A stretch of 64,000 bases of DNA from Gammaproteobacteria bacterium (GCA_022712945.1 JAFLJP010000057.1:35449-99448); one strand, 5' to 3'; positions 1-42,783 are shown, numbered from the stretch's first letter. Notes: a model not told the origin generated them from the sequence alone. Program-made: numbers and translations.

Positions 1-1
1 G

Positions 2-850
2 GGACAACTCATCGATGGTAAGGCGATCTCCGCTGGAATTCGCCAAAACATTAAAGTTCGCGTGCAACAGCGTGTTGCTCATGGTAAGCGTGCTCCGGGG
101 CTTGCGGTTATTCTGGTGGGTAGCAACCCTGCTTCTGAGATTTACGTTGGTGCGAAGCGCAAAGCGTGTGAAGAGGTCGGTTTTAAATCCATTGCCCATA
201 ACCTGCCGGCAGATACCACTCAAGAGACCCTGCTGACACTCATTGATGAACTCAATCATGATGAGACCATTGATGGCATTCTGGTTCAGCTGCCCCTGCC
301 CGAAGGGTTGTCAGTAGATGCCATTATCGAAGCTATTTCACCCCATAAAGATGTTGATGGTTTTCACCCTTGTAATATTGGTCGCCTGGCTCTGCGCCAA
401 CCCGCCTTACGCCCCTGTACCCCTAAAGGTATTATGACTCTGCTGGAAAAAACCGGCGAAGAGATCAGAGGCATGCACGCGATCATTGTGGGGGCTTCCA
501 ATATTGTTGGTCGACCCATGGGGCTTGAGCTGTTACTGGCGGGTGTCACTGTCACCACCACGCATCGCTTTACTAAAAACCTGGAGGGCTTTGTGCGCCA
601 GGCTGATATTTTGGTTGTTGCGGTGGGTAAGCCGGGCTTTATTCCTGGCGAGTGGGTTAAAGAAGGAGCGATTGTGATTGATGTGGGTATCAACCGCATG
701 GAGAATGGCAAGCTCTGTGGTGATGTGGATTTTGCCGGTGCTAAATTGCGTGCGGGCTGGATTACCCCAGTACCTGGCGGTGTTGGCCCAATGACCATCA
801 GTACGCTGCTGGAAAATACCCTGCAATCCGCCGATGAACGGCAGGCATGA
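2..850 (+). CDS. folD: Bifunctional methylenetetrahydrofolate dehydrogenase/cyclohydrolase FolD (5' end lies outside the window)
   Basis: The frame is open from nt 2 ([19 protein letters not shown]...). The translation has the FolD Rossmann core ([33 protein letters not shown]). Stop is at 848-850. Confidence 0.9.
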
Positions 851-874
851 GACACCATAATTTTCAGGACTTTC

Positions 875-2392
875 TTAGCGCATCTGTAAGGCGAGCTTGG
901 CATGGTTAACCAGCTGCTGGAAACTTTCAAATTGTGACTTGCTCACGGGCATGTTTGAGTCGTGCATGTCGGCATAAAACATCCCTAGTGGTTTTTTTCT
1001 GTCACCAAATGCGGCAACTACAAAGTTATTAACCCCGGTTTTTTGTTCAAAGTCCCGGGGTAAAAATGCACGCCACTTTGGTTCCATGGCGTCCACGACA
1101 TGCAGTGTTTTATCGGCAAAAATGACTTTTGAAAAGAGATCGGTATCGCGATTGACCGGGAATTTAATAAAGCCTTTAAGTGACTCACCCCCCTTGCCAA
1201 TCACAATGCGGGCGGCGTATTGATCTCGCTTTGGAGACAACAGGCAGAGCGCGACCCGGCAAAAACCGGCTCCTTGACATAGCCCTTCCATCAGCTTCAT
1301 AAATATCTGATTAATATCTGCCCGTTGCATCATCATTTCGGTCATTTCATTGACAGTTTGTAACAACAAGGTCGGGTCACCTTTTGCCATACTCATTTCG
1401 CGTTCATCGGCCAGATCTACGCTGTTTTCGATGCTCTGGGCATAATAGGCGAACTGCTTGGCAATTCGGTCCCGAGCCGAGTCGCCACTCTCCATCACCC
1501 GGGGGGATAGCAGTTTTTTATTCAGGTTGAACTCTTTAGCCAGATGACAGCCCATTTCAAATGCTTTATTCAGTGCTCCCCTAATGACATCGCTATCCAT
1601 TCCACTCACTTTTTTTAACTGCGCCAGCACCTCAGTCAGTGGCTGAGAGTGGCGATAGGGTTTTGCGTAGAGTGCACCCATTACTTGGCTGGCGAGGTTA
1701 GGGATAAACCGGTTGAATTCGGCAGAACTGCTCACCTCTTTGCTCGGCTGCTTTTGAATTCCAAGGGTGTTTTTGATCTCGGTGGGAAAGCCCCAGTCGG
1801 AGAGCAGATCCTGGGCAATGTCATCAAACCCACAGGATAATACCTCTCGCTGTGCGGCTGGCCAGCGCTTCCCCTTCTCTTCGCAGAGTCGAACCACTGC
1901 CATGTATTGATCCGGCATCGCATAAGCGACAATCATTTCACCCAGGTTGTGCATCAGGCCACAGAGGTAGCTCTGCTCGATATTGTCGACTCCCGCCTTG
2001 ATGGCCATTTCGCGCATGAAAGCGGCTGAAAGGTAGGCGTGAACCAGCATGCTGTTTATGTCCAGCTCATGATCTCCCTGGGAGAGTGAGTCGAGCAATT
2101 TCAGTGACAGGCTGATGTTTTTAATGGTATCAAAACCCAATACCATTACCGCCTGCGAAATAGAACCGATTTTAGCTTGCCCCCGGTTGTAATGTACCGA
2201 GTTAGAGAGGCGCAACATTTTCACACTCAGGCTGGCATCTTTCATCACCTCCATTGAGAGCTGCATGGCATCGGAGTCCGGGTTTTCGCTGATTTTTGAG
2301 ATGCGGTTGACACTGGCACTGAAGATTGGCAGGTCACCCAGTTCGTCAAGGTTATGCTGAAGTTGCTGGTAGCTCTTTTCATCGCTTTGCAT
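875..2392 (-). CDS. HDOD-domain signal-transduction protein with a C-terminal sensor-like (GAF-type) region
   Basis: 505 aa. The N-terminal half matches the HDOD pattern (MLRLSNSVHYNRGQAKIGSISQAVMVLGFDTIKNISLSL...HAYLSAAFMREMA). It is convergent with folD. Confidence 0.55.
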   Translation of the reverse strand: MQSDEKSYQQLQHNLDELGDLPIFSASVNRISKISENPDSDAMQLSMEVMKDASLSVKMLRLSNSVHYNRGQAKIGSISQAVMVLGFDTIKNISLSLKLLDSLSQGDHELDINSMLVHAYLSAAFMREMAIKAGVDNIEQSYLCGLMHNLGEMIVAYAMPDQYMAVVRLCEEKGKRWPAAQREVLSCGFDDIAQDLLSDWGFPTEIKNTLGIQKQPSKEVSSSAEFNRFIPNLASQVMGALYAKPYRHSQPLTEVLAQLKKVSGMDSDVIRGALNKAFEMGCHLAKEFNLNKKLLSPRVMESGDSARDRIAKQFAYYAQSIENSVDLADEREMSMAKGDPTLLLQTVNEMTEMMMQRADINQIFMKLMEGLCQGAGFCRVALCLLSPKRDQYAARIVIGKGGESLKGFIKFPVNRDTDLFSKVIFADKTLHVVDAMEPKWRAFLPRDFEQKTGVNNFVVAAFGDRKKPLGMFYADMHDSNMPVSKSQFESFQQLVNHAKLALQMR

Positions 2393-2432
2393 GGTCTGTT
2401 TGGAAACCTTTTTGGCTGGTGTGACAAAATCA

Positions 2433-2469
2433 ACAGAACAACTGATCCGTCAATATAAAGTGGTTGATG
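2433..2469. repeat. 37-bp repeat R (acagaacaacYgatccgtcaatataaagtggttgatg), copy 1, abutting the IS256-type end
   Basis: A near-identical copy lies at 24841-24877. Both copies sit 5-25 bp from a 'gcctgtccgagaatag' IS terminus. Confidence 0.6.
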
Positions 2470-2474
2470 CGCTA

Positions 2475-3045
2475 GAAGCCTGTCCGAGAATAGATAGGCC
2501 TACTGCGAAAGCGTGTTTTTTGCTCATTTTCCCGCCAAATTTTTAGACTGTAAGTCATTCTGTGTAACGGCCGGTTTTAAATCACTGAGGGTTCTATTCT
2601 CCGCAGCTTGCTGCGGGGTAGTTTATTGTAGTCCGTCAAACGCTCTTCAAACTCAATGATAAAACGATTCAGTGCGGGTTTCCAATTCCTAATTGGCATT
2701 GTCCATTTTTTAGCCGCCGCTTGTGTCGCCAAGTAGATCACTTTTTTGGCTGAGTCATCCGTCGGAAACAGTTTCCGTTTTTTAATCGCTTTGCGAATAA
2801 CACTGTTCAGCGATTCAATGGCGTTGGTGGTGTAGATGACTTTACGAATATCATCAGGATAGTTGAACAAGGTGTTGAAGTTATGCCAATGATTTCGCCA
2901 TGAACGGCTGATCTGCGGGTATTTGTCATCCCAGCGCTCGGCAAATTGTTCGAGTGCTAACAGGGCTTCTTCTTTAGTCACTGACTGATAAATTTTCTTC
3001 AGCTCAGCTGCCACAGTCTTAATAGTCTTTCCATGGCACATACTT
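2475..3045 (-). mobile_element. Truncated IS256-family element: terminal repeat plus transposase 3' fragment
   Basis: The terminus 'agcctgtccgagaatagataggcctactgcgaaagcgtgttttttgctcattttcccgcc' is the reverse complement of the right end of the 24901-25067 element. It is followed by a transposase C-terminal fragment. The N-terminal ~250 codons are missing. Confidence 0.75.
2577..3041 (-). pseudogene. IS256/mutator-family transposase, C-terminal 154-aa fragment
   Basis: The translation (YTTNAIESLNSVIRKAIKKRKLFPTDDSAKKVIYLATQAAAKKWTMPIRNWKPALNRF) matches the conserved C-terminal block of IS256 transposases. Full-length proteins are about 400 aa. Confidence 0.8.
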
Positions 3046-3290
3046 CATCGTGTTACGCACCATGTGAATGATACAGAACTGTATTTGGGCCTGTGGATAT
3101 ACGGCATGCTGGGGCTAATGATAGGCAATTACACAGATTTCAGTACAGTCTCAGCCAGAGTTCGCTACTCTATTTAGAGCTCGTACATAAGTACGCATTT
3201 ATTTTTTTATTGGAGCGGTTTTATTGTTGACAACGGGGGAGTCCACATAAGTTACAAACTATCTTTCGTGCAAAGGTCTCAATACAACCT

Positions 3291-3388
3291 AGGAGGCTGT
3301 CCGAGAATAGAGGTTGTAGCGAGAGAGTGTGATTTTTAGTTCATTTTTTCGATAATTTGAGGCGAATGGTTGTTCTCTTTAACGAAAA
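3291..3388 (+). mobile_element. Solo IS256-type left-end fragment
   Basis: 'taggaggctgtccgagaatagaggttgtagcgagagagtgtgatttttagttcattttttcgataatttgaggcgaatggttgttctctttaacgaaaa' is about 95% identical to 24901-25000 and to 61731-61808. No adjacent transposase ORF. Confidence 0.7.
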
Positions 3389-3575
3389 CAGGATTTCTGC
3401 TGATCTCTCTGGGTGCCCTGTTTTCCATTGCCTCGGCACTTTATTCAGCGCGAGCTGATACTACTTAAAAAGGCGAAAAGAATTTTAAAGGTGAGTTGGA
3501 GAGAGAGCTTTCCCGCCTGCTGCCACACCAACACCCTGACATGAAAGATACATCCTCAAAAGGGGGATCTATGCA

Positions 3576-6035
3576 ATGAATGATGTTAACGAAACAGCTG
3601 ATAAAACGACCAGCAACCAGGGACTCTCCAGCGATGAGGCAGCGCGTCGTCTAACACAATATGGCCCCAATGCTCTGGAAGATAAGCAGGTTTCTGTTCT
3701 AAGACGCCTGCTCGGTTATTTCTGGGGACCTATTCCGTGGATGATTGAAATCGCGGCGATACTCTCTGCGCTGGTGCAGCACTGGGCCGATTTCTGGATC
3801 ATTATCACACTGCTGATCTTTAATGCAGCAGTGGGTTTCTGGCAAGAGTACACCGCTGGTAATGCGGTGGCCGCATTGATGAAGCAGCTGGCGATGAGGG
3901 CGCGTGTACGGCGCGATAAACAGTGGCAAGAGATCGATGCACAGAGACTGGTGCCGGGCGATATCGTGCGCATTCGCCTCGGCGATGTCATTCCCGCTGA
4001 TGTTAAATTGATAGAGGGTGATTATCTGAGCGTGGATCAGTCGGCACTCACCGGCGAATCACTGCCCACCACCAAGCGCACAGGCGATGATGCCTTTTCG
4101 GGAACGGTAGTCAAACAAGGCGAGGTCGTTGCACAAGTGATGGCAACAGGGGCCAATACCCGTTTTGGTAAAACAGCCAGCCTAGTGCAGCAGGCAAAAA
4201 CCGTCTCTCACTTTCAGAAGGCGGTTCTCTCCATCGGTGATTACCTGATCTACGTCAGCCTAGCACTGGTGGCCATCCTGATTATCGTTGGCTTACACCG
4301 GGGTTCCGACTGGCTGGAGCTGGTGCAATTTGCACTGATCCTTACCGTTGCCTCCATTCCCGTTGCCATGCCGGCGGTGCTCTCCATGACCATGGCGATG
4401 GGGGCCATGGCGCTGTCGAAACGCAAGGCGATCGTTACCCGTCTGGAGTCGATCGAAGAGATGGCCAGCATGGATGTTTTATGCTCGGATAAAACAGGTA
4501 CCTTGACGCAAAATCGCCTGACATTAGGTGAGATCGAAATTTTTCATGCCAAGGATGAGCAGGAGGTCTTGTTAGCGGCGGCACAAGCCTCGCGTGAAGA
4601 GGACAGGGATGCCATCGATGATGCCGTGCTGGAAGGACTGAAAGATAAAAGTCAGCTCACGGCCTTTCGCCAAACCGATTTCATCCCCTTTGACCCCGTA
4701 CACAAGCGCACGGAAGCCACCTTACAGGATGCCAGCGGCAGCACCTTTCAAACCGTCAAAGGCGCACCGCAGGTTGTTATGGAAATGGCGGGACTTGAGG
4801 GGGAGGGGCTGACACGCGCCCAGCAAATCATCGATGACTTCGCGCAGCAGGGCTATCGCGCCCTCGGGGTTGCGCACCGGGAAAGTGGCTCCGCCAGTTG
4901 GACCTTTCTTGGCATTCTATCTCTGTTTGATCCACCACGCGAAGACTCTGCGACAACCATTGCCGAGACACGCGCCTACGGCGTTAGCATGAAAATGGTG
5001 ACGGGCGACAACTTGTCTATCGCCAAACAGATTGCCACAAAATTGGGGTTGGGCAGCAATATTTTGCGTGCTGATGCCTTGCCCAGCGGAAACAGTGGCC
5101 TAGATCATCGAGAGAGCATAAAGGCGGTAGAGGGCGCGGATGGCTTTGCCGAGGTCTTTCCCGAGCATAAATTCGAAATTGTTAAAATCCTGCAAAATCG
5201 CAATCACATTACCGGCATGACCGGCGACGGCGTCAACGATGCCCCAGCTTTAAAGCAGGCCGACGTGGGGATCGCCGTCAGTGGCGCAACCGATGCCGCA
5301 CGCGCCGCCGCAGATCTAGTACTGACCGGGCCGGGGCTATCAGTGATCACCCATGCCATCGAGGAGGCACGACGCATTTTCGAGCGTATGAATGCCTACG
5401 CTATTTACCGCATCAGCGAAACCATTCGCATCATGTTCTTCGTGGTGCTGGCGATGATTTTTTTCGACTTCTATCCCATCACCGCAATCATGATCATCCT
5501 GCTCGCCTTCTTCAACGACCTGCCCATCATGACCATCGCGTACGATCGCACCGGACTGGAGAAAGGCCCGGTGAGATGGAACATGCGCCAAGTCATTACC
5601 GTGGCCACCGTCATGGGTATCGTCGGCGTGGTGGGCAGCTTTGGTATGTTGCTGATTGCTATGGACTGGCTGCACCTGGACGTGGCGCAAATTCAGACCT
5701 ATGTATTCCTGAAAATGGCCATTGCCGGGCACCTGGTGTTGTTCGTTGCACGAACCAAAGGGCATTTCTGGGAGCGTCCCTGGCCCGCCCCGATCATGAT
5801 CTGGTCTGCGCTAATCACCAAACTGGCCGCAACACTGTTGGCGGCCTACGGCTTCGGACTCATCACCCCCATTACCTGGCCAGAAATCGCACTCATCTGG
5901 AGTTATTCGTTCGCCTCCGCCTTGCTCACCGACTGGGTCAAGGTTCAGGTCTATCGCCACATGTCACAGGAGGCACCTCGCCATCGTGGTTTTCTGGCGC
6001 GGCTGAAAAAATCCCTGCATGTTTTTGGACGTTAG
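3576..6035 (+). CDS. P-type ATPase, type IIIA (plasma-membrane H+-ATPase family)
   Basis: 819 aa with DKTGTLT, TGD and [10 protein letters not shown] motifs. The N-terminus resembles plant and fungal PMA/AHA proton pumps (GLSSDEAARRLTQYGPNALEDKQVSVLRRLLGYFWGPIPWMIEIAAI). This is not the MgtA or Kdp signature. Confidence 0.85.
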   Translation: MNDVNETADKTTSNQGLSSDEAARRLTQYGPNALEDKQVSVLRRLLGYFWGPIPWMIEIAAILSALVQHWADFWIIITLLIFNAAVGFWQEYTAGNAVAALMKQLAMRARVRRDKQWQEIDAQRLVPGDIVRIRLGDVIPADVKLIEGDYLSVDQSALTGESLPTTKRTGDDAFSGTVVKQGEVVAQVMATGANTRFGKTASLVQQAKTVSHFQKAVLSIGDYLIYVSLALVAILIIVGLHRGSDWLELVQFALILTVASIPVAMPAVLSMTMAMGAMALSKRKAIVTRLESIEEMASMDVLCSDKTGTLTQNRLTLGEIEIFHAKDEQEVLLAAAQASREEDRDAIDDAVLEGLKDKSQLTAFRQTDFIPFDPVHKRTEATLQDASGSTFQTVKGAPQVVMEMAGLEGEGLTRAQQIIDDFAQQGYRALGVAHRESGSASWTFLGILSLFDPPREDSATTIAETRAYGVSMKMVTGDNLSIAKQIATKLGLGSNILRADALPSGNSGLDHRESIKAVEGADGFAEVFPEHKFEIVKILQNRNHITGMTGDGVNDAPALKQADVGIAVSGATDAARAAADLVLTGPGLSVITHAIEEARRIFERMNAYAIYRISETIRIMFFVVLAMIFFDFYPITAIMIILLAFFNDLPIMTIAYDRTGLEKGPVRWNMRQVITVATVMGIVGVVGSFGMLLIAMDWLHLDVAQIQTYVFLKMAIAGHLVLFVARTKGHFWERPWPAPIMIWSALITKLAATLLAAYGFGLITPITWPEIALIWSYSFASALLTDWVKVQVYRHMSQEAPRHRGFLARLKKSLHVFGR

Positions 6036-6193
6036 GGATGTAGAAGAAGTTAACGTACCGTTATTACGCCGAATTGTTGTTCACCCTATCTAGGCCGGTA
6101 TTGGGCGCATAGTGAGCTACGCAACGAATACCGGCCTAGAGAGGGTGGGCGAAAAGAGAAGTAAGCGCGGTATTTTAATAAATTCTACATCCC
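6036..6193. mobile_element. MITE1 copy (158 bp). TIR is gggatgtagaa...ttctacatccc, 3-bp TSD is TTA, with an internal 13-bp palindrome
   Basis: The element is about 95% identical to 11083-11241. The target-site duplication TTA lies at 6032-6034 and 6194-6196. The ATPase stop codon TAG (6033-6035) straddles the TSD and element boundary. Confidence 0.85.
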
Positions 6194-6869
6194 TTAACAA
6201 TGAGAAGTTCAACTGTGACTACAACGCATTCCGCATGGAAACCTTTGAAAATACGACAGACCCTCTTGCTCATCGTACGGTCATTTTTTATCGCGTTCCC
6301 CGCCATGGCAACTGAGAATGTATCAATGCCCGTAACGGGGAAGCTCACGCTCTCCGGCATTGTCCAACTTGGTCACCCTGTGGGCCGGCCTTTCATGACA
6401 ATCATTCAGTCGTTGTCACCGCAGTGAAATGTTTCTCCAAAAACATCCATTTCAAGGCAACGAATATTTGGTAGGCTCAAGTCCGAGGCCTGAATCCCAT
6501 TCACAGTCGAATGCTGTATAGACTCAGCAGCAACGCCCTGGGAGGCTATGAATAGGTCTGGTTGGGCTTAATCAGAGTTTCTTTGAGTAATGCTCAATAA
6601 GCCTGTCCGCAAGGTCAGAAGATCATTGGTGGTGGTGATTTTGTGAGGTAGTATGTGCATAGGTCTTGTCTGTATCACCGATTGGGCACGGGTTTGTTTG
6701 GTCGCTAACCATTGTACAGCCAAGGTTTTTTGCGTTTTAGATATTTAAATCGGCTTCTTTGATGAGGCTGTTCTAAACTATTCAAGTTACGGTGTGGATG
6801 TGCGATAACCTCCTTCCACAGCATGCCCTGTAAATGGGTGGTAAAATGCCACCGTTGATGCCGACATAG

Positions 6870-9389
6870 ATGGAAAAAACCATGCCAAAATCGAATGCCA
6901 AATCTGCTCCCTGTGCCGCCAAGTTAATTACACTGCCGCCTTTGGCGATGGATGAGAAGGCGATATCTGAAGATCTGATTCGCTATTACAGCCGCACCTT
7001 GGGGCGTGAGCTTAAAAACTGCACCCCGCACTATCTCTATGAGGCGTTGGCCTACACGGTGCGCGATCGCCTGATGGAGCGCTGGAAAAATACCCGCGCA
7101 ACCTATGAAAATCTCGATGCCCGTCGTACCTGCTATCTCTCATTGGAGTTTTTGATGGGGCGTGCGCTGGGCAATGCGATGTTGAATCTCGGCATCGATG
7201 ATGCGGCTCATCGGGCACTGTATGATTACGGTATCGACCAGGAGCAGGTGGCGGAGAGTGAGCCAGATGCAGGTTTGGGTAATGGTGGTTTGGGCCGTTT
7301 GGCAGCCTGTTTTTTGGATAGCTGTGCCACCTTGCAGTTGCCGGTGCTGGGTTATGGTCTGCGTTATGAATATGGCATGTTTCGTCAGCAGTTGGAAAAT
7401 GGTCATCAACTGGAAGAGCCAGACCACTGGCTGCGTGATGGCCACCCCTGGGAGCTGGAGCGGCCGGAGTTTACCCAGCGCATTCATTTTGGTGGTCGCA
7501 CCGAGCACTACACCGATTATGCGGGTGTTACACGGGTTCGCTGGGTTGACGCTCTTGATGTTTTGGCGGTGCCTTACGATGTGCCGATTCCCGGTTTTGA
7601 GAACGATACGGTCAATAGCCTGCGTTTGTGGAAGTCGACTGCGACGGATGAGTTTAATTTGAGTGAGTTTAACGCCGGTGACTACGTTGAAGCGGTGGCC
7701 TCGAAAAATAAGGCTGAGCACATCACCATGGTGCTCTACCCGAACGATGCCAGTGAGAATGGCAAAGAGCTGCGGCTGCGCCAGCAATATTTTCTTGCCT
7801 CTGCCTCACTGAAAGATGTACTGCGTCGCTGGGTGCTTCTGCATGGCAATGACTTCAGCACCTTTGTGGATAAAAACTGTTTTCAACTGAATGATACTCA
7901 CCCCAGTATCGCGGTTGCTGAGCTGATGCGGCTATTGGTCGACGAACATCATATGGATTGGGATGGGGCGTGGGCGATTGTCACCAAAGTGATGGCTTAC
8001 ACCAATCACACTCTGCTTCCGGAAGCACTGGAGCGCTGGTCGGTACCGATGTTTGCCTACTTGTTGCCCCGTCTGTTAGAAGTGATTTATGAAATTAATG
8101 CCCGCTTTATGAAGCAGATTGCCCAACGCTGGCCGGGCGATACAGCGCGCCAGCAGCGGATGTCGATTATCGAAGAGGGGCCTTGCCAGATGATACGCAT
8201 GGCAAACCTGGCGATTGTTGGTAGCTTCTCGGTGAATGGGGTTGCTGAATTGCACTCCAAACTGTTGGTTGAAGGTCTGTTTAAAGATTTCAATGAGATG
8301 TGGCCAGAGAAATTTAATAACAAGACTAACGGTGTTACCCAGCGCCGCTGGTTGGCGATGTGCAACCCCGGTCTGAACAAATTGATCACTCAGACCATTG
8401 GTAGTGGCTGGATTACCGAGTTGGAGCAACTGCGCAAGTTGATTCCCTATGCGGCTAAAACACAATTTCGCAAGCAGTGGGCCGATGTAAAACTGGCCAA
8501 CAAACAGCGCCTTGCCGCACTGGTGGAGAGAGAGTGTGGAGTGAAATTTGATACCTCGGCACTGTTTGATGTGCAGGTGAAGCGTATTCATGAGTACAAA
8601 CGCCAGTTGTTGAATATCCTGCATGTGATTCACCTTTATGATCGCATCAAACGGGGGGATACCCAAAACTGGACCAAACGCTGTGTGCTGATCGGTGGCA
8701 AGGCGGCCCCGGGTTATGCGATGGCAAAGTCGATTATCAAGCTGGTTGGTAATGTGGCTGAAGTGGTTAACAACGACCCGGATGTGGGTGATCTGTTGAA
8801 AGTGGTCTTCTTCCCGAATTATCGTGTTTCGGCGATGGAGGTAATTGCCCCAGGCTCTGACCTATCGGAGCAGATCTCTACCGCCGGTAAAGAGGCTTCT
8901 GGTACTGGCAACATGAAGTTCATGATGAATGGTGCGGTGACTATCGGTACGCTGGATGGAGCCAATATCGAGATCCGGGAAGAGGTGGGGGATGATAACT
9001 TCTTCCTGTTCGGTTTGACGGCACCAGAGGTTGATGCGTTGCGCCGCGATTACCGCCCCTGGGATTATATCAATCACGATGCCGATTTCAGCGCCGTCAT
9101 GAGCCTGCTGCAAAGTGGTCACTTCTGTCAGTTTGAGGCGGGTATATTTGATGACATCATCAATAGTATTACCAACCCCCACGATCCTTGGCTGACCGCC
9201 GCAGATTTTCGCAGTTTCGTGGATGCGCAGACGCAGGCCGCTGCCGCCTACCGTGATCAAAAACGTTGGGTACGGATGAGTATTTTAAATACAGCCACCA
9301 GTGGTAAATTTTCCACTGACCGTACTATGCGTGATTACAATGAAGAGATCTGGAAGCTTGAAGCGGTAAAACCGGCTGTGGTGGGCTAA
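6870..9389 (+). CDS. glgP: Glycogen/maltodextrin phosphorylase
   Basis: 839 aa. Carries the pyridoxal-phosphate site EASGTGNMKFMMNGA and the typical phosphorylase N-terminal region. Confidence 0.95.
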   Translation: MEKTMPKSNAKSAPCAAKLITLPPLAMDEKAISEDLIRYYSRTLGRELKNCTPHYLYEALAYTVRDRLMERWKNTRATYENLDARRTCYLSLEFLMGRALGNAMLNLGIDDAAHRALYDYGIDQEQVAESEPDAGLGNGGLGRLAACFLDSCATLQLPVLGYGLRYEYGMFRQQLENGHQLEEPDHWLRDGHPWELERPEFTQRIHFGGRTEHYTDYAGVTRVRWVDALDVLAVPYDVPIPGFENDTVNSLRLWKSTATDEFNLSEFNAGDYVEAVASKNKAEHITMVLYPNDASENGKELRLRQQYFLASASLKDVLRRWVLLHGNDFSTFVDKNCFQLNDTHPSIAVAELMRLLVDEHHMDWDGAWAIVTKVMAYTNHTLLPEALERWSVPMFAYLLPRLLEVIYEINARFMKQIAQRWPGDTARQQRMSIIEEGPCQMIRMANLAIVGSFSVNGVAELHSKLLVEGLFKDFNEMWPEKFNNKTNGVTQRRWLAMCNPGLNKLITQTIGSGWITELEQLRKLIPYAAKTQFRKQWADVKLANKQRLAALVERECGVKFDTSALFDVQVKRIHEYKRQLLNILHVIHLYDRIKRGDTQNWTKRCVLIGGKAAPGYAMAKSIIKLVGNVAEVVNNDPDVGDLLKVVFFPNYRVSAMEVIAPGSDLSEQISTAGKEASGTGNMKFMMNGAVTIGTLDGANIEIREEVGDDNFFLFGLTAPEVDALRRDYRPWDYINHDADFSAVMSLLQSGHFCQFEAGIFDDIINSITNPHDPWLTAADFRSFVDAQTQAAAAYRDQKRWVRMSILNTATSGKFSTDRTMRDYNEEIWKLEAVKPAVVG

Positions 9390-9396
9390 GGTTTTT

Positions 9397-11070
9397 TTAG
9401 TTCCTCAACAAACCGAGATCATCCGAGGCCAGTACCAGGGCACGAAGCCCTTCCCGGGTGCCGCTGTCCCAGGTGTCTAGTGGATTGAAATCGTCTGTTA
9501 GAACAATCGGCGTACGCTGGGGCGGGGCGATCGGTTTCGGTGAAAGAATACTGTTGATTACCCGCTCTCTGATGGGCGGGTAGATACGGGAACCAGCGAA
9601 TACTTCGTTGTTCAACTCTCTTTTTGCCCCGTTATAGGCCACCACGATGACATTGGAGATGTTGTTTTCATTCTCCTTGTGAATGGGGTAATACGCCACA
9701 TGCTTAAACAATGGGCGCAATGTTTTGAGAATGGAGTGGATGCCTGCGGTCTCATTTTGGATGTCAGCAATCAGGTTGATGGCAAAAATACCCTCATCAC
9801 TCAGCGCTTTTTTAACTAGACCAAACGCTTCGTAACTGAGCAGTAGCGTCGGGGTCAGGTCACCATTGAATACATCCATGATAACGTAGTCATAGCGCTT
9901 CTGGTTGGTGGCCAGAAAGTAACGGGCATCATTAACGTAAATCTCTCCACTCACTTTCAGATCAAAAAACTCTTTAGCCACATCGACAATCACTGGATCA
10001 ATATCAATCGCATCCACACTGACACCTCGCGCCTCGTAGCGCATGGGCACCACGCCCGCACCCAAACCGATAACCAACGCCTGGCTACCATTGGGGTTCA
10101 GACCATAGGGGATGAATTCCAGTAGGTAGGAGTACTCATAGAGCGACACCCGGTTAACCATGTCAAAGCCCCCCTGGGTGAAGCCATCAATTAGCAGGTC
10201 TCTGACATGCTGATCTCCATAGGTGTAATCAATTACCTTGGTGAGTCCATAATAGCTGCTGAGATTAGCAATCTCCTGAACTCGTGTACCATCCGCTAAT
10301 ACCATATCGACGGGTTTATAGGTCGGCCAGAAAATAACCGGTAACAGCATCAGCAGCAGCATGAGGTAGCGCTTGCGAAACACCACAAAGTAGATGACAG
10401 AAATGCCGATCAATACCGCAGCAGTGAGCATGAACACACTGTCTACGCGAAAGTAAGAGATCAGAAAAAAGCCGGTTGCGGTGGTGCCCACCATGCTGCC
10501 CAGTGTCGACAGGGCATAAAAGCGCCCCACGGTACGTCCAATGAGGTGAAACTCTTTGGTGGCTATTTTAATCAGGTAGGGGGAGACACAGCCCAATACA
10601 AACAGGGGTGGTCCAAATAGAAGGAAGGTGCTAGCAAAAGCGCCCCAGCGTAACCCCAGCGGTATGCACAATTCAATAACGGCTGTTTTGATGAAGGGGA
10701 TCAGCATGACCAGCAGGCCGCTGACCAGGACAATGCCGTAAAGGTTGTCAGGGTGTTCACGTTTATCTGCCCAGTAACCGGCTATCCAGTATCCCAGTGC
10801 CAGACTTAACAGCGCCACTGCAATCAGTGAAGTCCAGACAAACAGGCCCACACCAAAAAAGGGGCCGATGATCCGTGAACCCATCACTTCCACTACCATG
10901 ACAAAGCCACCACATAACACGGCGGTCAGCATTAAATACCTTAAAAACCAAGGGGAATGGATGTTGTTATTATCATCATTCATGGTGTTTCTTATACTCC
11001 GATAGTCAGTCCGCCCATGATATACCGCTGAGCGGATGCTTGACAGTATGCTGGAACGACTTTTTAACAA
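9397..11070 (-). CDS. Fused polytopic membrane domain/spermidine synthase-like aminopropyltransferase
   Basis: The N-terminus has about 8 TM helices. The C-terminal domain has a class-I SAM-fold SpeE-like block (ALVIGLGAGVVPMRY...YDYVIMDVFNGD). The true start may be the downstream Met (MNDDNNN, about nt 10986). Confidence 0.7.
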   Translation of the reverse strand: MLKSRSSILSSIRSAVYHGRTDYRSIRNTMNDDNNNIHSPWFLRYLMLTAVLCGGFVMVVEVMGSRIIGPFFGVGLFVWTSLIAVALLSLALGYWIAGYWADKREHPDNLYGIVLVSGLLVMLIPFIKTAVIELCIPLGLRWGAFASTFLLFGPPLFVLGCVSPYLIKIATKEFHLIGRTVGRFYALSTLGSMVGTTATGFFLISYFRVDSVFMLTAAVLIGISVIYFVVFRKRYLMLLLMLLPVIFWPTYKPVDMVLADGTRVQEIANLSSYYGLTKVIDYTYGDQHVRDLLIDGFTQGGFDMVNRVSLYEYSYLLEFIPYGLNPNGSQALVIGLGAGVVPMRYEARGVSVDAIDIDPVIVDVAKEFFDLKVSGEIYVNDARYFLATNQKRYDYVIMDVFNGDLTPTLLLSYEAFGLVKKALSDEGIFAINLIADIQNETAGIHSILKTLRPLFKHVAYYPIHKENENNISNVIVVAYNGAKRELNNEVFAGSRIYPPIRERVINSILSPKPIAPPQRTPIVLTDDFNPLDTWDSGTREGLRALVLASDDLGLLRN

Positions 11071-11082
11071 TTTTTCAGATTA

Positions 11083-11241
11083 GGGATGTAGAAGAAGTTA
11101 AAGTACCGTTATTACGCCGAATTTTTGTTCACCCTATCTAGGCCGGTATTGGGCGCATAGTGAGCTACGCAACGAATACCGGCCTAGATAGGGTGGGCGA
11201 AAAGACAAGTAAGAGCGGTATTTTAATAAATTCTACATCCC
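11083..11241. mobile_element. MITE1 copy (159 bp), TSD TTA
   Basis: Same TIRs and internal sequence as 6036-6193. TTA lies at 11080-11082 and 11242-11244. The element fills the 177-bp gap between the upstream gene's stop (11248) and the downstream gene's start (11070). Confidence 0.85.
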
Positions 11242-11247
11242 TTAGGC

Positions 11248-11670
11248 TCAATAGAGTAGCCCGTAGTTGGCGATGCCGCCTACGTGGGTAAACAGCCAGA
11301 GGGGAATGAAGATGCGCCCCATTCGTCGGTGTTTCTGGTTGATACGCCGTGCGAGCGGGGATTCCCCCTTATGAAATCGTGCCCAGAGCATCAGTGTGCT
11401 GCCCACTAATGGAATCAGGGCGATTGAGCCGTGGATGATAAGCCAGGTGAGCATGAGCGGGTCGGGCAGTTGGGGCATCTCACCAGGGATCAGGTAGCGA
11501 AGCAGGTAGCTGATAACAAAGGTCCAAGAGCCGACAACCATCAAAATCATGATGATACGGTGGCGCTGGGTGCGGGAATTGACCGCATCACGCCAGGCCA
11601 GTAGCAGCAGCCCGATGGCCAGGATGCTCCAGAGAAGGCCGAAATTTACTGAGAGTTGAGTGAAAGTCAC
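11248..11670 (-). CDS. Small 4-TM membrane protein (DUF420-like), function unknown
   Basis: 140 aa with four hydrophobic helices. The family assignment is tentative. Confidence 0.4.
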   Translation of the reverse strand: MTFTQLSVNFGLLWSILAIGLLLLAWRDAVNSRTQRHRIIMILMVVGSWTFVISYLLRYLIPGEMPQLPDPLMLTWLIIHGSIALIPLVGSTLMLWARFHKGESPLARRINQKHRRMGRIFIPLWLFTHVGGIANYGLLY

Positions 11671-19375: not shown

Positions 19376-19711
19376 CTAAATGTGTGACGCTTGATCTAAA
19401 ACTTCAGATGCCCACTGATTAATGCTCTTTCCACGTATTTGAGCAGCGGTTGCAACAGCCGCGTGCACATCAGGAGGTACCCTCAGCATCAGCTTGCCAG
19501 AATAGGTTTTTTGTGCCGCTCTACCCGTCTCTTCGCTAATCGAAATATAGTTATCAACAGACTCATGGAAAGCGCTCTCTAGCTCATCGACGGTGGTGCC
19601 ATGAAAACCGACAATATCTTTAATGCCTGCCAAATGGCCAACAAAAATACGGTCATCTTCATCGTATTCATAATGTGATACCAGCCTGTTCCAGGAATTT
19701 TCGAGCATCTT
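19376..19711 (-). CDS. hicB: HicB-family antitoxin (RHH C-terminus)
   Basis: Has the HicB N-domain (YEYDEDDRIFVGHLAGIKDIVGFHGTTVDELESAF) and a C-terminal ribbon-helix-helix (YSGKLMLRVPPDVHAAVATAAQIRGKSINQWASEVL). The start is uncertain. The longest ORF, to 19774, would overlap hicA by 107 nt. Confidence 0.7.
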   Translation of the reverse strand, partial: KMLENSWNRLVSHYEYDEDDRIFVGHLAGIKDIVGFHGTTVDELESAFHESVDNYISISEETGRAAQKTYSGKLMLRVPPDVHAAVATAAQIRGKSINQWASEVLDQASHI

Positions 19712-19922
19712 TAACTCGGTAGCGTACTGCTTCTTTATCAGGGTGAGGTCGATGGAAATCGACTCGAATATCATTCAAAACAAAACTAACAGCAGAACCC
19801 GCCCTCTCCGTGCGAATGGCTCCCAAAGAGAGGAACAACGCCTCTATTTTACGCGATTCGATATTCCCATTAACAGGGTCATCAAATATCGCTTTGAGCG
19901 TCTTTCTGATTTTACTGTTCAT
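19668..19922 (-). CDS. hicA: HicA-family toxin (YcfA-like mRNA interferase)
   Basis: MNSKIRKTLKAIFDDPVNGNIESRKIEALFLSLG...VSFVLNDIRVDFHRPHP is a HicA signature. It lies upstream of and overlaps hicB. The start may instead be the Met at 19952. Confidence 0.7.
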   Translation of the reverse strand: MNSKIRKTLKAIFDDPVNGNIESRKIEALFLSLGAIRTERAGSAVSFVLNDIRVDFHRPHPDKEAVRYRVKDARKFLEQAGITL

Positions 19923-20274
19923 GCCCTTAATGATAGCTGTTTTTGATGCCACAGTAAGCTAAAAGTGATATCAATAATTAAAATGCAAAAAGGACTCAAA
20001 TATTACATTGACTCTTTGTCTTTTTGGTTGGCCCAGTTAAGTTTTTATCGGGTGCTGTGTTGTAATATTTGACCCTTGAAACTCTAATGAATGCCCCCCC
20101 CAAAAACGAGCGTCAAAAAGCGATTCAATTTGGGGAGGGCAACTACTCTGACACAGAGAGTACACACCAAGTACCAGCAAAAGCCGGTTCTATTGAAAAT
20201 AAGGCTACACCACCTTCCCAATCGCATCGATTTCTGGCAAAGTAGAGGCCGATTTTAAATGATGGAGAGTCAAC

Positions 20275-20556
20275 GTGGCAAAAGCGAGTGCGCGACATAT
20301 TTTGGTAAATGGCGAAGAGCAGTGTAATGATTTAAAGGCACAGATTACAGCGGGGGCTGATTTTGCTGAGTTGGCAAAGCAGCATTCGGGGTGTCCTTCA
20401 GGGCGTGATGGCGGGAGCCTGGGTGAGTTTGGCCCCGGTATGATGGTGCCTGAGTTTGATCAAGTGGTTTTCAGTGCGCCGATTGGTGAGGTGCAGGGGC
20501 CGGTAAAGACTCAGTTTGGTTACCATTTGCTGGAAGTAACTGAGCGCACTGATTAG
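20275..20556 (+). CDS. ppiC: Parvulin-type peptidyl-prolyl isomerase PpiC
   Basis: 93 aa and near-colinear with E. coli PpiC (HILV...ADFAELAKQHSGCPSGRDGGSLGEFGPGMMVPEFDQVVFS...FGYHLLEV). It uses a GTG start after a GGAGAG RBS. Confidence 0.9.
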   Translation: MAKASARHILVNGEEQCNDLKAQITAGADFAELAKQHSGCPSGRDGGSLGEFGPGMMVPEFDQVVFSAPIGEVQGPVKTQFGYHLLEVTERTD

Positions 20557-24900: not shown

Positions 24901-25067
24901 TCTAGGAGCCTGTCCGAGAATAGAGGTCGTAGCGAGAGAGTGTGATTTTTAGTTCATTTTTTCGACAATTTGAGACGAATGGTTGTTCCCTTTAACGAAA
25001 ATTGGCGGGAAAATGAGCAAAAAACACGCTTTCGCAGTAGACCTATCTATTTTCGGACAGGCTCCTA
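24901..25067. mobile_element. MITE-like IS256-derived element (167 bp) with 22-bp perfect TIRs (ctaggagcctgtccgagaatag)
   Basis: The left 100 bp match the solo ends at 3291-3388 and 61731-61808. The right 65 bp match the IS end at 2475-2540 in reverse complement. No coding capacity. Confidence 0.8.
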
Positions 25068-34342: not shown

Positions 34343-34368
34343 ATGATTATCTGTCTGAAAATTATTTA

Positions 34369-34527
34369 GGAACGAGCGCGGAATAACTTATGCAGTTATG
34401 ACGCAGAAATTTTTCTCCAGTTCAAACGATCTCAAGAGGCGCATAGCTGGCTTACGTAACGATTGAGATCGTTTGAACTGGGGTGAAAGAGCAAGTCAGA
34501 ATGTAGGCGTTATTTCGTGATCGTTCC
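34369..34527. mobile_element. MITE3 copy (159 bp). TIR is ggaacgagc...gatcgttcc, TSD is TTA, with an internal 15-bp palindrome
   Basis: About 93% identical to 42036-42194. TTA lies at 34366-34368 and 34528-34530. The internal perfect inverted repeat is ttcaaacgatctcaa / ttgagatcgtttgaa. It sits in the divergent promoter region, 27 bp from the apaG ATG. Confidence 0.85.
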
Positions 34528-34603
34528 TTAGGGAAACTTTGAGCAAACGGCTCAGAGCTACCCCAATTATAACCGAACACCATCCGAGGGGAAGGGGAGT
34601 TAA

Positions 34604-42020: not shown

Positions 42021-42220
42021 GAAAGTTCTGAATAAGGAACGAGCACGGAATAACTTATGCAATTATGACGTAGAAATTTTGCTCCCGTTCAAACCAACTC
42101 AAGAGGCGCATAGCTGGCCTACGTAACGATTGAGATCGTTTGAACTGGGGTAAAAGAGCAAGTCAGAATGTAGAAGTTATTTCGTGATCGTTCCTAAGTC
42201 ATGATTTATTCAGAGCTTCC
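42021..42220. mobile_element. Composite: a 38-bp MITE2 mini-variant (TSD ATAG) carrying a nested MITE3 (42036-42194, TSD TAA)
   Basis: 'gaaagttctgaataa | MITE3 | taagtcatgatttattcagagcttcc' is flanked by ATAG at 42017-42020 and 42221-42224. MITE3 duplicated the TAA of 'ctgaaTAAgtcatg', which is seen intact in MITE2 at 15104-15261. The ccoG stop TAG lies inside the ATAG TSD. Confidence 0.85.
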
Positions 42221-42234
42221 ATAGGTAGGGTATA

Positions 42235-42783
42235 GTGAATAAAGGTAATAAGGGTGTATCTGTGAAAGAGAACGAAACTGACGATGTAATACGTGTGCCA
42301 GCGTGGAAAAGCCCTTGGGTTTGGGGGATGGCGATACTGGTGACAACGATGCTTGTTGTCAACTTTACCATGATCACTATTGGTCTAAATACGCATACCG
42401 GCTTGGTTGTAGATGACTTTTACGCGAAGGGAAAGGCTTACCTGCATGAGGAGGTAAAGCACAACGAAGCTGAGCAACGTCTGCAATGGCGTATGGTTTT
42501 AAAAGAGCCCAGTACACCAAAGCTTAATCAACTACAGCAGTACCAGTTTATTTTGAAAGATAAGCAGGGTGAGCCGATTAGTGATGCAGCGGTTGAGCTG
42601 TACGTTTATCGGGTAAATGATGCGAGCAAAGATTTTTCGATGCGGATGAAGGAAATTAGGGCCGGTGTTTATGTGGCCGAAGCTGAGTTTAAACTGCCGG
42701 GGCATTGGGATTTGATTGTGTCGGCAGTTAAAAGTGAGGAAGATCAACTTGATCTTGCGCGACGTATCTTTGTCCAGGATTGA
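42235..42783 (+). CDS. ccoH: FixH/CcoH family protein
   Basis: 182 aa with a single N-terminal TM helix and a periplasmic domain. It sits between ccoG and ccoI, as in canonical clusters. GTG start. Confidence 0.75.

What the first reader, a model, noticed from the sequence alone, without database searches (positions are those of the whole stretch)
3576..6196. Bacterial type IIIA (plant/fungal-like) plasma-membrane H+-ATPase
Type IIIA proton pumps are characteristic of plants and fungi and are sporadic in bacteria. This ORF shows the PMA-type N-terminus and full P-type catalytic motifs rather than MgtA or Kdp features. Its stop codon is embedded in a MITE junction.
Basis: partly seen in the sequence, partly recalled or inferred. 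Interest (0 to 1): 0.5.

Follow-up and report, generated by a model that had tools for sequence, protein, structure and literature searches.

The report
Bacterial P3A-type proton pump gene
The ORF is an intact bacterial member of the plant/fungal-type (P3A) proton-pump family, which is common and routinely annotated in vent bacteria, so the call is correct but fairly ordinary; here mobile elements have destroyed the genes on both sides of it.

Summary
The gene is real and the classification holds. The ORF runs 3576-6035 (819 aa). The rest of the reported span, up to 6196, is a 159-bp MITE plus its target-site duplication. The protein matches NCBIfam TIGR01647 (P3A H+-ATPase) over its full length at 986 bits (cut-off 615). 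MgtA, KdpB and all other subfamily models fall below their cut-offs. The best solved structures are AHA2 (1e-195) and PMA1 (1e-170); MgtA scores 2e-89. An NJ tree places the protein in a bacterial clade next to archaeal P3A, inside AHA2+PMA1 and apart from MgtA. The proton-site residues are all present: Asn83, Arg618 and Asp648 (AHA2 N106, R655, D684). The fungal-position Arg612 is present too. The plant and fungal regulatory tails are absent. The family is not rare. Relatives at 75-93% identity occur in many vent Gammaproteobacteria and other phyla, and PGAP names them automatically. The stop-codon observation is correct: the MITE inserted at TTA and changed TAA to TAG without altering the protein. 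New here: the upstream permease and downstream PstS-like partners are pseudogene scars. In about 40% of related species the pump lies beside glycogen, glycolysis, phosphoketolase or polyphosphate genes and stress genes. That suggests ATP-driven proton export when respiration fails.

The parts
2480..3041 (-). Remnant of an IS256/Mutator-family insertion sequence. It has a terminal repeat CTGTCCGAGAATAGA at 2480-2494 and an ORF at 2577-3041 that encodes only the C-terminal ~110 aa of the transposase.
   Evidence: Pfam PF00872 matches profile positions 268-377 of 379 only. The terminal-repeat pattern has 5 matches in the window against 0.12 expected.
3297..3388 (+). Truncated copy of a second MITE family. 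The full 151-bp copy lies at 24910-25060. This copy ends where homology to the relatives' operon begins.
   Evidence: Repeat family D1 is 95% identical to 24902-25001. The terminal repeats are at 24910(+) and 25046(-).
3379..3534 (+). Pseudogene scar of the APC-family permease that sits immediately upstream of the pump in 16 related species. It keeps a ~60-bp mid-gene piece (aa ~277-297) and the last ~35 codons. About 410 bp are deleted internally and everything 5' of the scar is lost.
   Evidence: tblastn gives several HSPs with E from 6e-7 to 1e-5. blastn aligns 3386-3444 to L001 5383-5441 and 3440-6022 to L001 5853-8447.
3562..3567 (+). Shine-Dalgarno sequence GGGGGA, 8 nt before the start codon.
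   Evidence: Read directly from the sequence.
3576..6035 (+). P3A-type P-type ATPase gene, 819 aa, stop TAG at 6033-6035. Key codons: N83 3822-3824, TGES 4050-4061, DKTGT (D305) 4488-4502, GDGVNDAP 5223-5246, R612 5409-5411, R618 5427-5429, D648 5517-5519.
   Evidence: dN/dS is 0.03-0.08 against seven relatives.
6035..6193 (.). MITE of 159 bp (family A) with GGGATGTAGAA terminal inverted repeats and a long internal hairpin. The TTA target-site duplication lies at 6032-6034 and 6194-6196. Its first base completes the pump's stop codon.
   Evidence: The RNA fold is -88.1 kcal/mol with z = -12.6.
6200..6427 (+). A 75-codon ORF that is probably the frameshifted 5' stump (about 6200-6386) of the PstS-family binding-protein gene. 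That gene follows the pump directly in 9 related species.
   Evidence: Residues 23-59 align collinearly with residues 23-63 of the L007 protein (E 2e-4 pairwise). A second tblastn HSP continues in another frame at 6351-6386. There is no Pfam hit. This evidence is weak.
6870..9389 (+). Glycogen/maltodextrin phosphorylase (GlgP type, 839 aa) on the same strand as the pump. It is the only neighbour in the window that echoes the storage-polymer context seen in relatives.
   Evidence: Pfam PF00343 scores 1088 bits. It is 24% identical to the alpha-glucan phosphorylases that lie next to the pump in 8 loci.
11083..11241 (.). Second full-length copy of MITE family A, with TTA duplications. It is wedged between two co-directional genes, 3 bp after the DUF420 stop codon and 9 bp before the next start codon.

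Best explanation
The ORF at 3576-6035 encodes an intact prokaryotic member of the P3A subfamily of P-type ATPases, the family of plant AHA and fungal PMA1 plasma-membrane H+-ATPases.

Inferred mechanism, by homology with AHA2 and PMA1:
- In the E1 state a cytoplasmic proton is held on Asp648 (TM6), paired with Asn83 (TM2).
- ATP phosphorylates Asp305 of the DKTGT motif.
- In the E1P to E2P transition Arg618 (TM5) moves onto Asp648 and the proton is released outside.
- The arginine then serves as a built-in counter-ion, so the TGES loop dephosphorylates the enzyme without counter-transport. This gives electrogenic export of about 1 H+ per ATP.
- There is no plant or fungal autoinhibitory tail, so control is presumably transcriptional.

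Physiological role, inferred from gene neighbourhoods in related species: the pump uses ATP made by substrate-level routes (glycogen breakdown, lower glycolysis/PEP synthase, phosphoketolase plus acetate kinase, polyphosphate kinase 2). With that ATP it keeps membrane potential and cytoplasmic pH when respiration cannot, for example during anoxia or acid pulses in vent or redox-fluctuating habitats.

In this genome the ancestral permease-pump-PstS-like unit has been broken by mobile elements. An IS256 fragment plus a truncated MITE lie upstream and a MITE sits at the stop codon. Only the pump is intact, now followed by glgP.
For: Shown here:
- The TIGR01647 equivalog matches at full length with 986 bits, while every other subfamily model is below its cut-off.
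- AHA2 scores 1e-195 and PMA1 1e-170, aligned over residues 12-786, against 2e-89 for MgtA.
- The NJ tree has 100% support for the bacterial clade, 100% for the prokaryotic clade, and 95-100% for grouping with AHA2 and PMA1 against MgtA.
- N83, D305, R612, R618, N647 and D648 align to AHA2 N106, D329, R655, N683, D684 and to PMA1 R695. D648, R612 and N83 are invariant in all 131 bacterial and 6 archaeal relatives; R618 and N647 are each replaced in one of the 131 bacterial sequences. TM4 reads PVAMP, without the Glu found in MgtA's PEMLP.
- dN/dS is 0.03-0.08.
- The Shine-Dalgarno sequence is intact and the stop codon is preserved.

Gene context:
- 28 of 71 loci carry at least one alpha-glucan phosphorylase, PGAM, enolase, PEP synthase/PPDK, class-I aldolase or phosphoketolase gene within 5 kb. 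These are mostly co-directional with the pump.
- Acetate kinase, GAPDH, PPK2 and a CRP/FNR regulator also occur nearby.
- Independent gene calls show PpsA>DUF308>enolase>PGAM>pump in Sedimenticola thiotaurini. They show CRP/FNR, PpsA>DUF308>pump plus GAPDH and a glycogen-debranching enzyme in Methylothermaceae B42. In Methylohalobius crimeensis the order is nuoG-N>pump.

The roles of Asp684, Arg655 and Asn106 are taken from PMC10654040.
Against: - No prokaryotic P3A ATPase has had its transported ion determined. PMC10654040 says so explicitly, so H+ specificity is inferred from conserved residues only.
- Both operon partners of this copy are pseudogene scars. The native upstream region has been replaced by IS/MITE fragments, and a simple sigma-70 scan found no +-strand promoter upstream. 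Expression is therefore unproven.
- The low dN/dS mostly reflects history before the decay.
- The neighbourhood association is correlative, varies between lineages, and is absent from the closest relatives L001-L003.
- In the window only glgP adjacency remains. That glgP is a different phosphorylase type from the one in relatives (24% identity), so the adjacency may be coincidence.
- The tree is NJ with a single P3B outgroup.
Confidence: 0.75

Rival explanations
1. The protein is a genuine P3A-family member but pumps something other than protons, for example K+, Na+, NH4+ or Mg2+, or it exchanges H+ for a cation. The 'proton pump' label would then be wrong for the prokaryotic branch.
For: The transport function of prokaryotic P3A ATPases is stated to be undetermined (PMC10654040). 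Prokaryotic members carry two TM5 arginines (R612 and R618), whereas plants and fungi each carry one, so the site is not identical. In the closest relatives the immediate operon partners are an APC-family permease and a PstS-like binding protein. That pairing could point to a solute-linked role.
Against: Every residue implicated in H+ handling in AHA2 and PMA1 is conserved: the TM6 Asp, TM2 Asn and TM5 Arg. TM4 lacks the cation-binding Glu of P2 and P3B pumps. The curated equivalog model is met at full length.
Confidence: 0.12
2. The gene is a stranded relic. It is intact only because the surrounding decay is recent. It is no longer transcribed from a proper promoter and does nothing useful in this organism.
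For: The upstream permease and the downstream PstS-like gene are reduced to scars. Homology to relatives is confined to 3386-6032. IS and MITE fragments abut both ends. No +-strand sigma-70-like promoter was found between 2300 and 3576.
Against: The ORF has 819 codons with no frameshift or premature stop, although both neighbours have decayed. The Shine-Dalgarno sequence is retained and the stop codon was preserved through the MITE insertion. All catalytic and ion-site residues are intact. The promoter scan is a crude consensus match, and outward-reading promoters from IS ends are common (general knowledge).
Confidence: 0.12
3. The protein is a P3B (MgtA-like) Mg2+ ATPase or another bacterial subfamily (KdpB, P2A Ca2+, P1B) that has been misread as P3A.
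For: All P-type ATPases share the core motifs. MgtA is the next-best family (378.7 bits; 2e-89). The closest database relative is labelled a heavy-metal ATPase by one source.
Against: Every one of these models scores below its curated cut-off: MgtA 378.7 against 610.75, PMR1 360.6 against 798.3, KdpB 148.8 against 527.9. The tree separates the protein from MgtA with 100% support. MgtA has S, E, G and Y where the query has N83, V263, R618 and N647. There is no HMA metal-binding domain.
Confidence: 0.01

Closest known systems
Arabidopsis thaliana AHA2 plasma-membrane H+-ATPase (P3A; PDB 5KSD)
   Same: It is the best solved-structure match, at E 1e-195 and aligned over query residues 12-786. The two share DKTGT, TGES and GDGVNDAP, the TM2 Asn (N106=N83), the TM5 Arg (R655=R618), the TM6 Asn-Asp pair (N683/D684=N647/D648) and a TM4 IP(I/V)AMP motif.
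   Different: The query has no ~100-residue C-terminal autoinhibitory R domain. Only 33 basic residues follow TM10, and there is no terminal YTV-type 14-3-3 site. It carries an additional Arg at the fungal position (R612; AHA2 has Ala649). It is 819 aa, whereas AHA2 is about 948 aa (length from memory).
Fungal PMA1 (Neurospora crassa 1MHS/7NXF; Saccharomyces cerevisiae 7VH5)
   Same: E-values are 6e-170 and 1e-168. The two share the TM5 Arg at the fungal position (R695=R612), the TM6 Asp (D730=D648) and the TM2 Asn (N154=N83).
   Different: The query lacks the ~70-80-residue N-terminal extension and the fungal C-terminal regulatory tail. It has Arg where the fungi have His701, and Asn647 where they have Ala729. 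Hexamer formation is unknown.
Archaeal P3A ATPases (Methanosarcinales, Ethanoperedens, Bathyarchaeota, Aciduliprofundum; the characterised example is Methanocaldococcus jannaschii MJ1226, cited from memory)
   Same: They form the sister clade in the tree (prokaryotic clade 100%). They are 51-55% identical, of similar length (~820-840 aa), and have the same two TM5 arginines and the same Asn/Asp proton site.
   Different: TM4 reads PVALP or PAALP rather than PVAMP. They belong to a different domain of life. The 2023 review describes prokaryotic P3A as 'mainly found in methanogenic Archaea', whereas this clade is bacterial and spans several phyla.
MgtA/MgtB (P3B Mg2+ ATPases; PDB 8UY7)
   Same: This is the nearest other subfamily. 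It shares the TM6 Asp and the overall 10-TM P3 architecture.
   Different: It scores below the family cut-off. MgtA lacks both TM5 arginines (T and G) and the TM2 Asn (Ser), and it has Glu in TM4. It forms the outgroup in the tree.
Bacterial MITEs that insert at TWA/TA targets between genes (IS5- or IS630-derived elements, Correia/ERIC-type intergenic hairpins; comparison from memory)
   Same: The element is short (159 bp), non-coding and multi-copy. It has terminal inverted repeats, a 3-bp TTA/TAA duplication and a very stable hairpin, and it sits between co-directional genes.
   Different: No parent IS with these terminal repeats was found in the window, so family assignment was not tested. 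Any effect on mRNA stability or termination is untested.

Membership tests
P3A plasma-membrane H+-ATPase (TIGR01647) | Full-length match to the curated equivalog profile above its cut-off, with other P-type subfamily profiles below theirs. | tested here: met
   986.3 bits against a cut-off of 615.5, covering model positions 1-755 of 755. All 14 other subfamily-specific P-type models with equivalog or subfamily cut-offs score below threshold.
P3A plasma-membrane H+-ATPase (TIGR01647) | P-type catalytic core: phosphorylated Asp in DKTGT, TGES in the A domain, and the TGDN and GDGVNDAP hinge motifs. | tested here: met
   TGES at 159, DKTGT at 305, TGDN at 476 and GDGVNDAP at 550. Pfam finds the E1-E2_ATPase, Hydrolase and Cation_ATPase_N domains.
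P3A plasma-membrane H+-ATPase (TIGR01647) | Proton site: TM6 Asp (AHA2 D684/PMA1 D730), TM2 Asn (N106/N154) and TM5 Arg (R655 or R695). | tested here: met
   D648, N83, R618 and R612 align to these positions. The numbering was checked against known AHA2 and PMA1 positions. D648, N83 and R612 are invariant in 137 prokaryotic relatives; R618 is replaced (by Asp) in one bacterial sequence.
P3A plasma-membrane H+-ATPase (TIGR01647) | Phylogenetic grouping with AHA and PMA1 to the exclusion of MgtA. | tested here: met
   NJ tree on 789 columns with 200 bootstraps: all P3A sequences separate from MgtA at 100%, and prokaryotes group with AHA2 at 95%. Caveats: distance method and a single outgroup sequence.
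P3A plasma-membrane H+-ATPase (TIGR01647) | Ten transmembrane helices in a 2+2+6 arrangement. | tested here: inconclusive
   The alignment to AHA2 spans all ten helices. Hydropathy peaks cluster at 45-88, 220-270 and 623-768. No dedicated topology or structure prediction was run.
P3A plasma-membrane H+-ATPase (TIGR01647) | ATP-driven, vanadate-sensitive, electrogenic H+ export. | not testable with these tools
   This needs biochemistry. The literature states that the function of prokaryotic P3A is undetermined.
Eukaryotic autoinhibited P3A (plant AHA / fungal PMA1 subtypes) | Extended regulatory N- and/or C-terminal domains (plant R domain of ~100 aa; fungal termini). | tested here: not met
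   The query starts 11 residues before the conserved N-terminal helix and ends 33 residues after TM10. This is expected for prokaryotic members, so the query is P3A but belongs to neither the AHA nor the PMA1 subtype.
P3B Mg2+ ATPase (MgtA, TIGR01524) | Profile score above the cut-off, together with the MgtA-type TM4 PEMLP motif and absence of a TM5 Arg. | tested here: not met
   378.7 bits against a cut-off of 610.75. The query has PVAMP and both arginines.
KdpB (P1A, TIGR01497) | Profile score above the cut-off. | tested here: not met
   148.8 bits against a cut-off of 527.9.
MITE (non-autonomous transposable element) | Short and non-coding, with terminal inverted repeats, a target-site duplication and several copies per genome. 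| tested here: met
   The element is 159 bp. Its 11-bp perfect terminal repeat extends to 34 nt at 74% complementarity. TTA duplications flank both full copies. There are 8 terminal-repeat matches against 0.87 expected.

The most novel reading that the evidence does not exclude
Bacterial P3A pumps may be the output device of a conserved, horizontally mobile survival module in chemolithotrophs from redox-fluctuating habitats, probably regulated by CRP/FNR. In this module, storage polymers (glycogen, polyphosphate) and substrate-level ATP routes are wired at operon level to a 1 H+/ATP P-type pump. The routes are lower glycolysis with PEP synthase, and phosphoketolase with acetate kinase. The pump keeps membrane potential and pH when the respiratory chain stalls. 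That would give the first physiological role for prokaryotic P3A ATPases. It would also bear on the open question of whether P3A pumps were electrogenic membrane energisers before eukaryotes. The presence of both the 'plant' and the 'fungal' TM5 arginine in all but one of 137 prokaryotic sequences (one bacterial sequence lacks the plant-position Arg) would then mark the ancestral proton site. In that view each eukaryotic lineage kept one arginine.
Probability: 0.35. Interest if true: 0.6.

Novelty: new member of a known kind. Interest (0 to 1): 0.3.

Why it matters
As a gene call it adds little. The family has a curated NCBIfam equivalog, relatives are auto-annotated, and bacterial sequences are already used as outgroups in P3A phylogenies.

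Two things give it modest value. First, a 2023 review still describes prokaryotic P3A pumps as mainly archaeal and of unknown transport function. This clade is abundant in vent bacteria from several phyla and keeps the complete proton site. That makes it a convenient system, free of regulatory domains, for testing H+ transport. Second, the recurrent operon-level linkage to glycogen, glycolysis, phosphoketolase, polyphosphate and stress genes gives a concrete, testable physiological hypothesis.

The locus is also a clean example of operon decay by IS and MITE activity in which only the pump was spared. The MITE's TTA/TAA target let it land on a stop codon without changing the protein.

Tried and rejected
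- An Rfam gathering scan of the whole window found nothing, so there is no riboswitch or leader upstream of the pump. No tRNA genes were found.
- The sigma-70/terminator consensus scan of 2300-7000 gave counts at shuffle level and no +-strand promoter before 3576. This is uninformative rather than negative.
- Naming the organism failed. The exact protein is in NCBI, ENA and Logan without a name or accession. Other assemblies of it are the same strain (99.96-100% nt) and give no polymorphism data. The single genome-contig scan found no genome closer than 90% aa identity.
- The Biopython bootstrap timed out and was replaced by a numpy NJ bootstrap. In that tree L061 (Cocleimonas) is an empty sequence, because its ORF is interrupted, and it should be ignored.
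- Three literature searches for a described link between bacterial P-type H+-ATPases and phosphoketolase, glycogen or stress clusters found nothing relevant. The library covers open-access papers only.
- Eukaryotic contamination was rejected. The gene is flanked by bacterial genes (folD, an HDOD protein, glgP), has a Shine-Dalgarno sequence, and its nearest relatives are bacterial.
- Synteny beyond the pump was checked. None of folD, HDOD, the spermidine-synthase-like gene, DUF420 or the MBL gene occurs in any related locus.
- Structure prediction and fold search were not run. Sequence matches to solved P3A structures at 1e-195 make them redundant.
Full report
**1. What is at the coordinates**

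The + strand carries one long ORF, 3576-6035, of 819 codons ending in TAG. A GGGGGA Shine-Dalgarno lies 8 nt before the ATG. The reported end, 6196, is not the end of the gene. Positions 6035-6193 are a 159-bp MITE with terminal inverted repeats GGGATGTAGAA...TTCTACATCCC. It is flanked by TTA at 6032-6034 and 6194-6196.

The terminal repeat occurs 8 times in the window against 0.87 expected. A 95%-identical full copy, also flanked by TTA, lies at 11083-11241. Shorter relatives lie at 53527-53639 (flanked by TAA) and at 33211.

The stop codon is built from the junction. T6033 and A6034 are the last two bases of the left TTA, and G6035 is the first base of the element. Removing the element and one TTA gives ...GGA CGT TAA CA ATG.... 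So the pre-insertion stop was TAA at the same codon and the protein was not changed. Close relatives end ...FGRQ...FGRR or ...FGHRQ, and the query ends ...FGR. As RNA the element folds into a -88 kcal/mol hairpin (z = -12.6) whose basal stem includes the stop codon.

**2. What the protein is**

- NCBIfam gives TIGR01647 'plasma-membrane proton-efflux P-type ATPase' (equivalog) at 986.3 bits against a cut-off of 615.5, covering the whole model.
- MgtA (378.7 against 610.75), PMR1, SERCA, PMCA, Na/K, heavy-metal and KdpB (148.8 against 527.9) models are all below cut-off.
- Pfam finds only the generic Cation_ATPase_N, E1-E2_ATPase and Hydrolase domains.
- Among solved structures the order is AHA2 (1e-195), Neurospora PMA1 (6e-170), yeast PMA1 (1e-168), and then MgtA (2e-89).

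I took the aligned AHA2, PMA1 and MgtA sequences; their lengths matched the reported coordinates. I combined them with 22 relatives from related loci and built an NJ tree with 200 bootstraps. The query falls in a bacterial clade (100%) that is sister to an archaeal clade (together 100%). AHA2 joins next (95%), then the fungal PMA1s, and all of these separate from MgtA.

The bacterial clade mixes Gammaproteobacteria, Desulfobulbaceae, Thermodesulfobacteriota, Gallionella and Planctomycetota on short branches (72-76% aa identity across phyla). That pattern points to horizontal spread.

**3. Ion site**

In an alignment of 137 prokaryotic relatives plus the references, numbering reproduced the known positions AHA2 N106, D329, R655 and D684 and PMA1 N154, D378, R695 and D730. 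This validates the mapping. The query has:

- N83 (= N106);
- D305 (= D329);
- R618 (= AHA2 R655);
- N647/D648 (= N683/D684);
- R612, at the position of fungal R695, where AHA2 has Ala. Fungi in turn have His at the plant Arg position.

D648, N83 and R612 are invariant across the 131 bacterial and 6 archaeal sequences. R618 and N647 are each replaced by Asp in one of the 131 bacterial sequences, the Zetaproteobacteria MAG in the printed alignment block. TM4 reads PVAMP, without the cation-binding Glu that MgtA has in PEMLP. The roles of these residues are taken from the 2023 review PMC10654040.

After TM10 only 33 basic residues remain. There is no plant R domain and no fungal extension, as the review describes for prokaryotic members.

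**4. How common and how known**

The protein search listed 120 clusters at 75-93% identity. Several are named by NCBI 'plasma-membrane proton-efflux P-type ATPase' (Gammaproteobacteria, Sedimenticola, Methylohalobius, Pirellulales). A few are mislabelled as heavy-metal or calcium ATPases. The genome scan found relatives in 72 species-level genomes, mostly hydrothermal-vent MAGs.

PMC9708826 already uses eubacterial and archaeal P3A sequences as an outgroup. Acidithiobacillus papers mention the gene. [quoted passage not shown] The call is therefore a new member of a known kind. The open point is function, not existence.

**5. Surroundings in the window**

Nucleotide homology to the closest loci (about 80%) runs only from 3386 to 6022-6032 and stops at the MITE.

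Upstream:
- Positions 3379-3534 hold two pieces of the APC-family permease gene that lies 34-47 bp upstream of the pump in most of the 16 related species that carry it. One is a mid-gene piece and the other is the last ~35 codons. About 410 bp are deleted between them and everything 5' is missing.
- The scar abuts a truncated copy (3297-3388) of a second MITE family whose full 151-bp copy is at 24910-25060.
- Beyond that lies a fragment of an IS256/Mutator transposase (2577-3041, - strand).

Downstream:
- Three bases after the MITE's right TTA, a 75-codon ORF (6200-6427) aligns collinearly with the PstS-family binding protein that follows the pump by 6-21 bp in 9 species. Residues 23-59 match residues 23-63, and the match continues in another frame at 6351-6386. 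This match is weak, but its position is right.
- glgP follows at 6870-9389 on the same strand.

None of the window's other flanking genes occurs in any related locus. The ancestral permease-pump-PstS-like unit was therefore relocated or acquired and then eroded on both sides, and only the pump stayed intact. dN/dS against seven relatives is 0.03-0.08. This mostly reflects older history. Other assemblies carry the same strain with the same scars, so they give no information on recent selection. A crude consensus scan shows no +-strand promoter upstream, so expression is unproven.

**6. Context in relatives and the likely role**

I clustered ORFs within 5 kb of the pump in 71 loci and annotated the clusters. 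The recurrent neighbours, mostly co-directional, are:

| Neighbour | Loci |
|---|---|
| APC permease | 16 |
| Alpha-glucan phosphorylase (TIGR02094 type; count includes the window's own GlgP-type gene) | 10 |
| YflT-like stress protein | 10 |
| PstS-like protein | 9 |
| Phosphoglycerate mutase | 8 |
| Enolase | 7 |
| PEP synthase/PPDK | 7 |
| Class-I aldolase | 5 |
| Phosphoketolase | 5 |
| DUF308/HdeD-like | 5 |
| BON-domain protein | 4 |
| YfdX | 4 |
| Acetate kinase (next to phosphoketolase in two of the three) | 3 |
| GAPDH | 3 |
| CRP/FNR regulator | 3 |
| PPK2 | 2 |

In total, 28 of 71 loci have at least one glycogen- or glycolysis-type neighbour. From general knowledge of genome content I would expect roughly 1 in 71 by chance: about 6 such genes in about 3000, with about 6.5 neighbours per locus. 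This is an estimate, not a computed control.

Independent gene calls confirm the pattern:
- Sedimenticola thiotaurini has PpsA>DUF308>enolase>PGAM>pump.
- Methylothermaceae B42 has CRP/FNR, PpsA>DUF308>pump, with GAPDH and a glycogen-debranching enzyme nearby.
- Methylohalobius crimeensis has nuoG...N>pump.

All these partners either make ATP without respiration or deal with acid or general stress. The most economical reading is an ATP-driven proton exporter that keeps membrane potential and cytoplasmic pH when respiration fails. I found no paper describing this linkage. In the window only the glgP adjacency survives. That glgP is of a different phosphorylase type (24% identity), so it is either a convergent association or a coincidence.

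**7. Verdict**

Family membership is near certain. Outward H+ pumping is probable but inferred. The physiological role is a hypothesis. The finding is a new member of a known, auto-annotated family, and interest is modest at 0.3. Added value comes from the operon-decay picture, the stop-preserving MITE insertion, the dual TM5 arginines and the neighbourhood-based functional hypothesis.

Noticed in passing
window 5409-5411 and 5427-5429 (R612, R618); alignment: The 137 prokaryotic P3A sequences examined carry both the fungal-position TM5 arginine (PMA1 R695, invariant) and the plant-position one (AHA2 R655, replaced by Asp in one Zetaproteobacteria MAG). Plants have Ala at the fungal position and fungi have His at the plant position. 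This suggests a two-arginine ancestral proton site from which each eukaryotic lineage kept one.
   Followed up: partly
window 6035-6193 and 11083-11241: Both full-length copies of MITE family A sit in very short spacers between co-directional genes. One overlaps the pump's stop codon and ends 6 bp before the next ATG. The other starts 3 bp after the DUF420 stop codon and ends 9 bp before the next start codon. The TTA/TAA target makes stop codons natural landing sites, and the -88 kcal/mol hairpin could act as an intercistronic terminator or mRNA stabiliser.
   Followed up: partly
window 34368-34531 and 42035-42198: A third MITE-like family of 164 bp, with 93% identity between the two copies and terminal repeats AGGAACGAGC.../...GATCGTTCCT. 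Its central loop (GCGCATAGCTGGCTTACGTAACGA) resembles the centre of family A (GCGCATAGTGAGCTACGCAACGA), although the stems differ. This may be a shared core with swapped arms.
   Followed up: no
window 2480-2494, 3297-3388, 24910-25060, 61736-61827: A second MITE/IS family with terminal repeat CTGTCCGAGAATAGA. It has one complete 151-bp MITE (24910-25060), truncated copies, and one end next to an IS256-family transposase fragment (2577-3041). This suggests the MITE derives from that IS.
   Followed up: partly
window 42780-45269 (+) and 62019-63947 (-): The same window holds two more P-type ATPases, both heavy-metal P1B type. One has ATPase-cat_bd and HMA domains and lies a few kb downstream of a COX1-family oxidase subunit (37125-38564). 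It looks like a CcoI/FixI-type copper pump for a cbb3 oxidase. The other lacks an HMA domain.
   Followed up: no
L078 (Methylohalobius crimeensis) 1-11463: In this methanotroph the P3A gene directly follows nuoG-nuoN of complex I on the same strand, with a 52-bp gap. A SulP transporter and an Mrp/hydrogenase-4-like membrane complex come next. This is a different, respiratory-chain context for the pump.
   Followed up: no
L076 (Sedimenticola thiotaurini) 19475-20457: A second P-type ATPase with a Cation_ATPase_N domain lies about 8 kb downstream of the P3A gene in the same stress-gene neighbourhood (YfdX, CRP/FNR, DUF308).
   Followed up: no
window 3576-6035 compared with its flanks: The pump gene has higher GC (0.55, GC3 0.64) than the window average (0.50) and most neighbours (GC3 0.49-0.59). 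Together with the absence of flank synteny and the cross-phylum similarity of the family, this fits horizontal acquisition.
   Followed up: partly
hits P0001, P0077, P0091, P0065, P0089: Several close homologues in public databases carry wrong names: 'Lead, cadmium, zinc and mercury transporting ATPase; Copper-translocating P-type ATPase', 'calcium-transporting ATPase' and 'metal-transporting ATPase'. Their sequences are clearly P3A.
   Followed up: no
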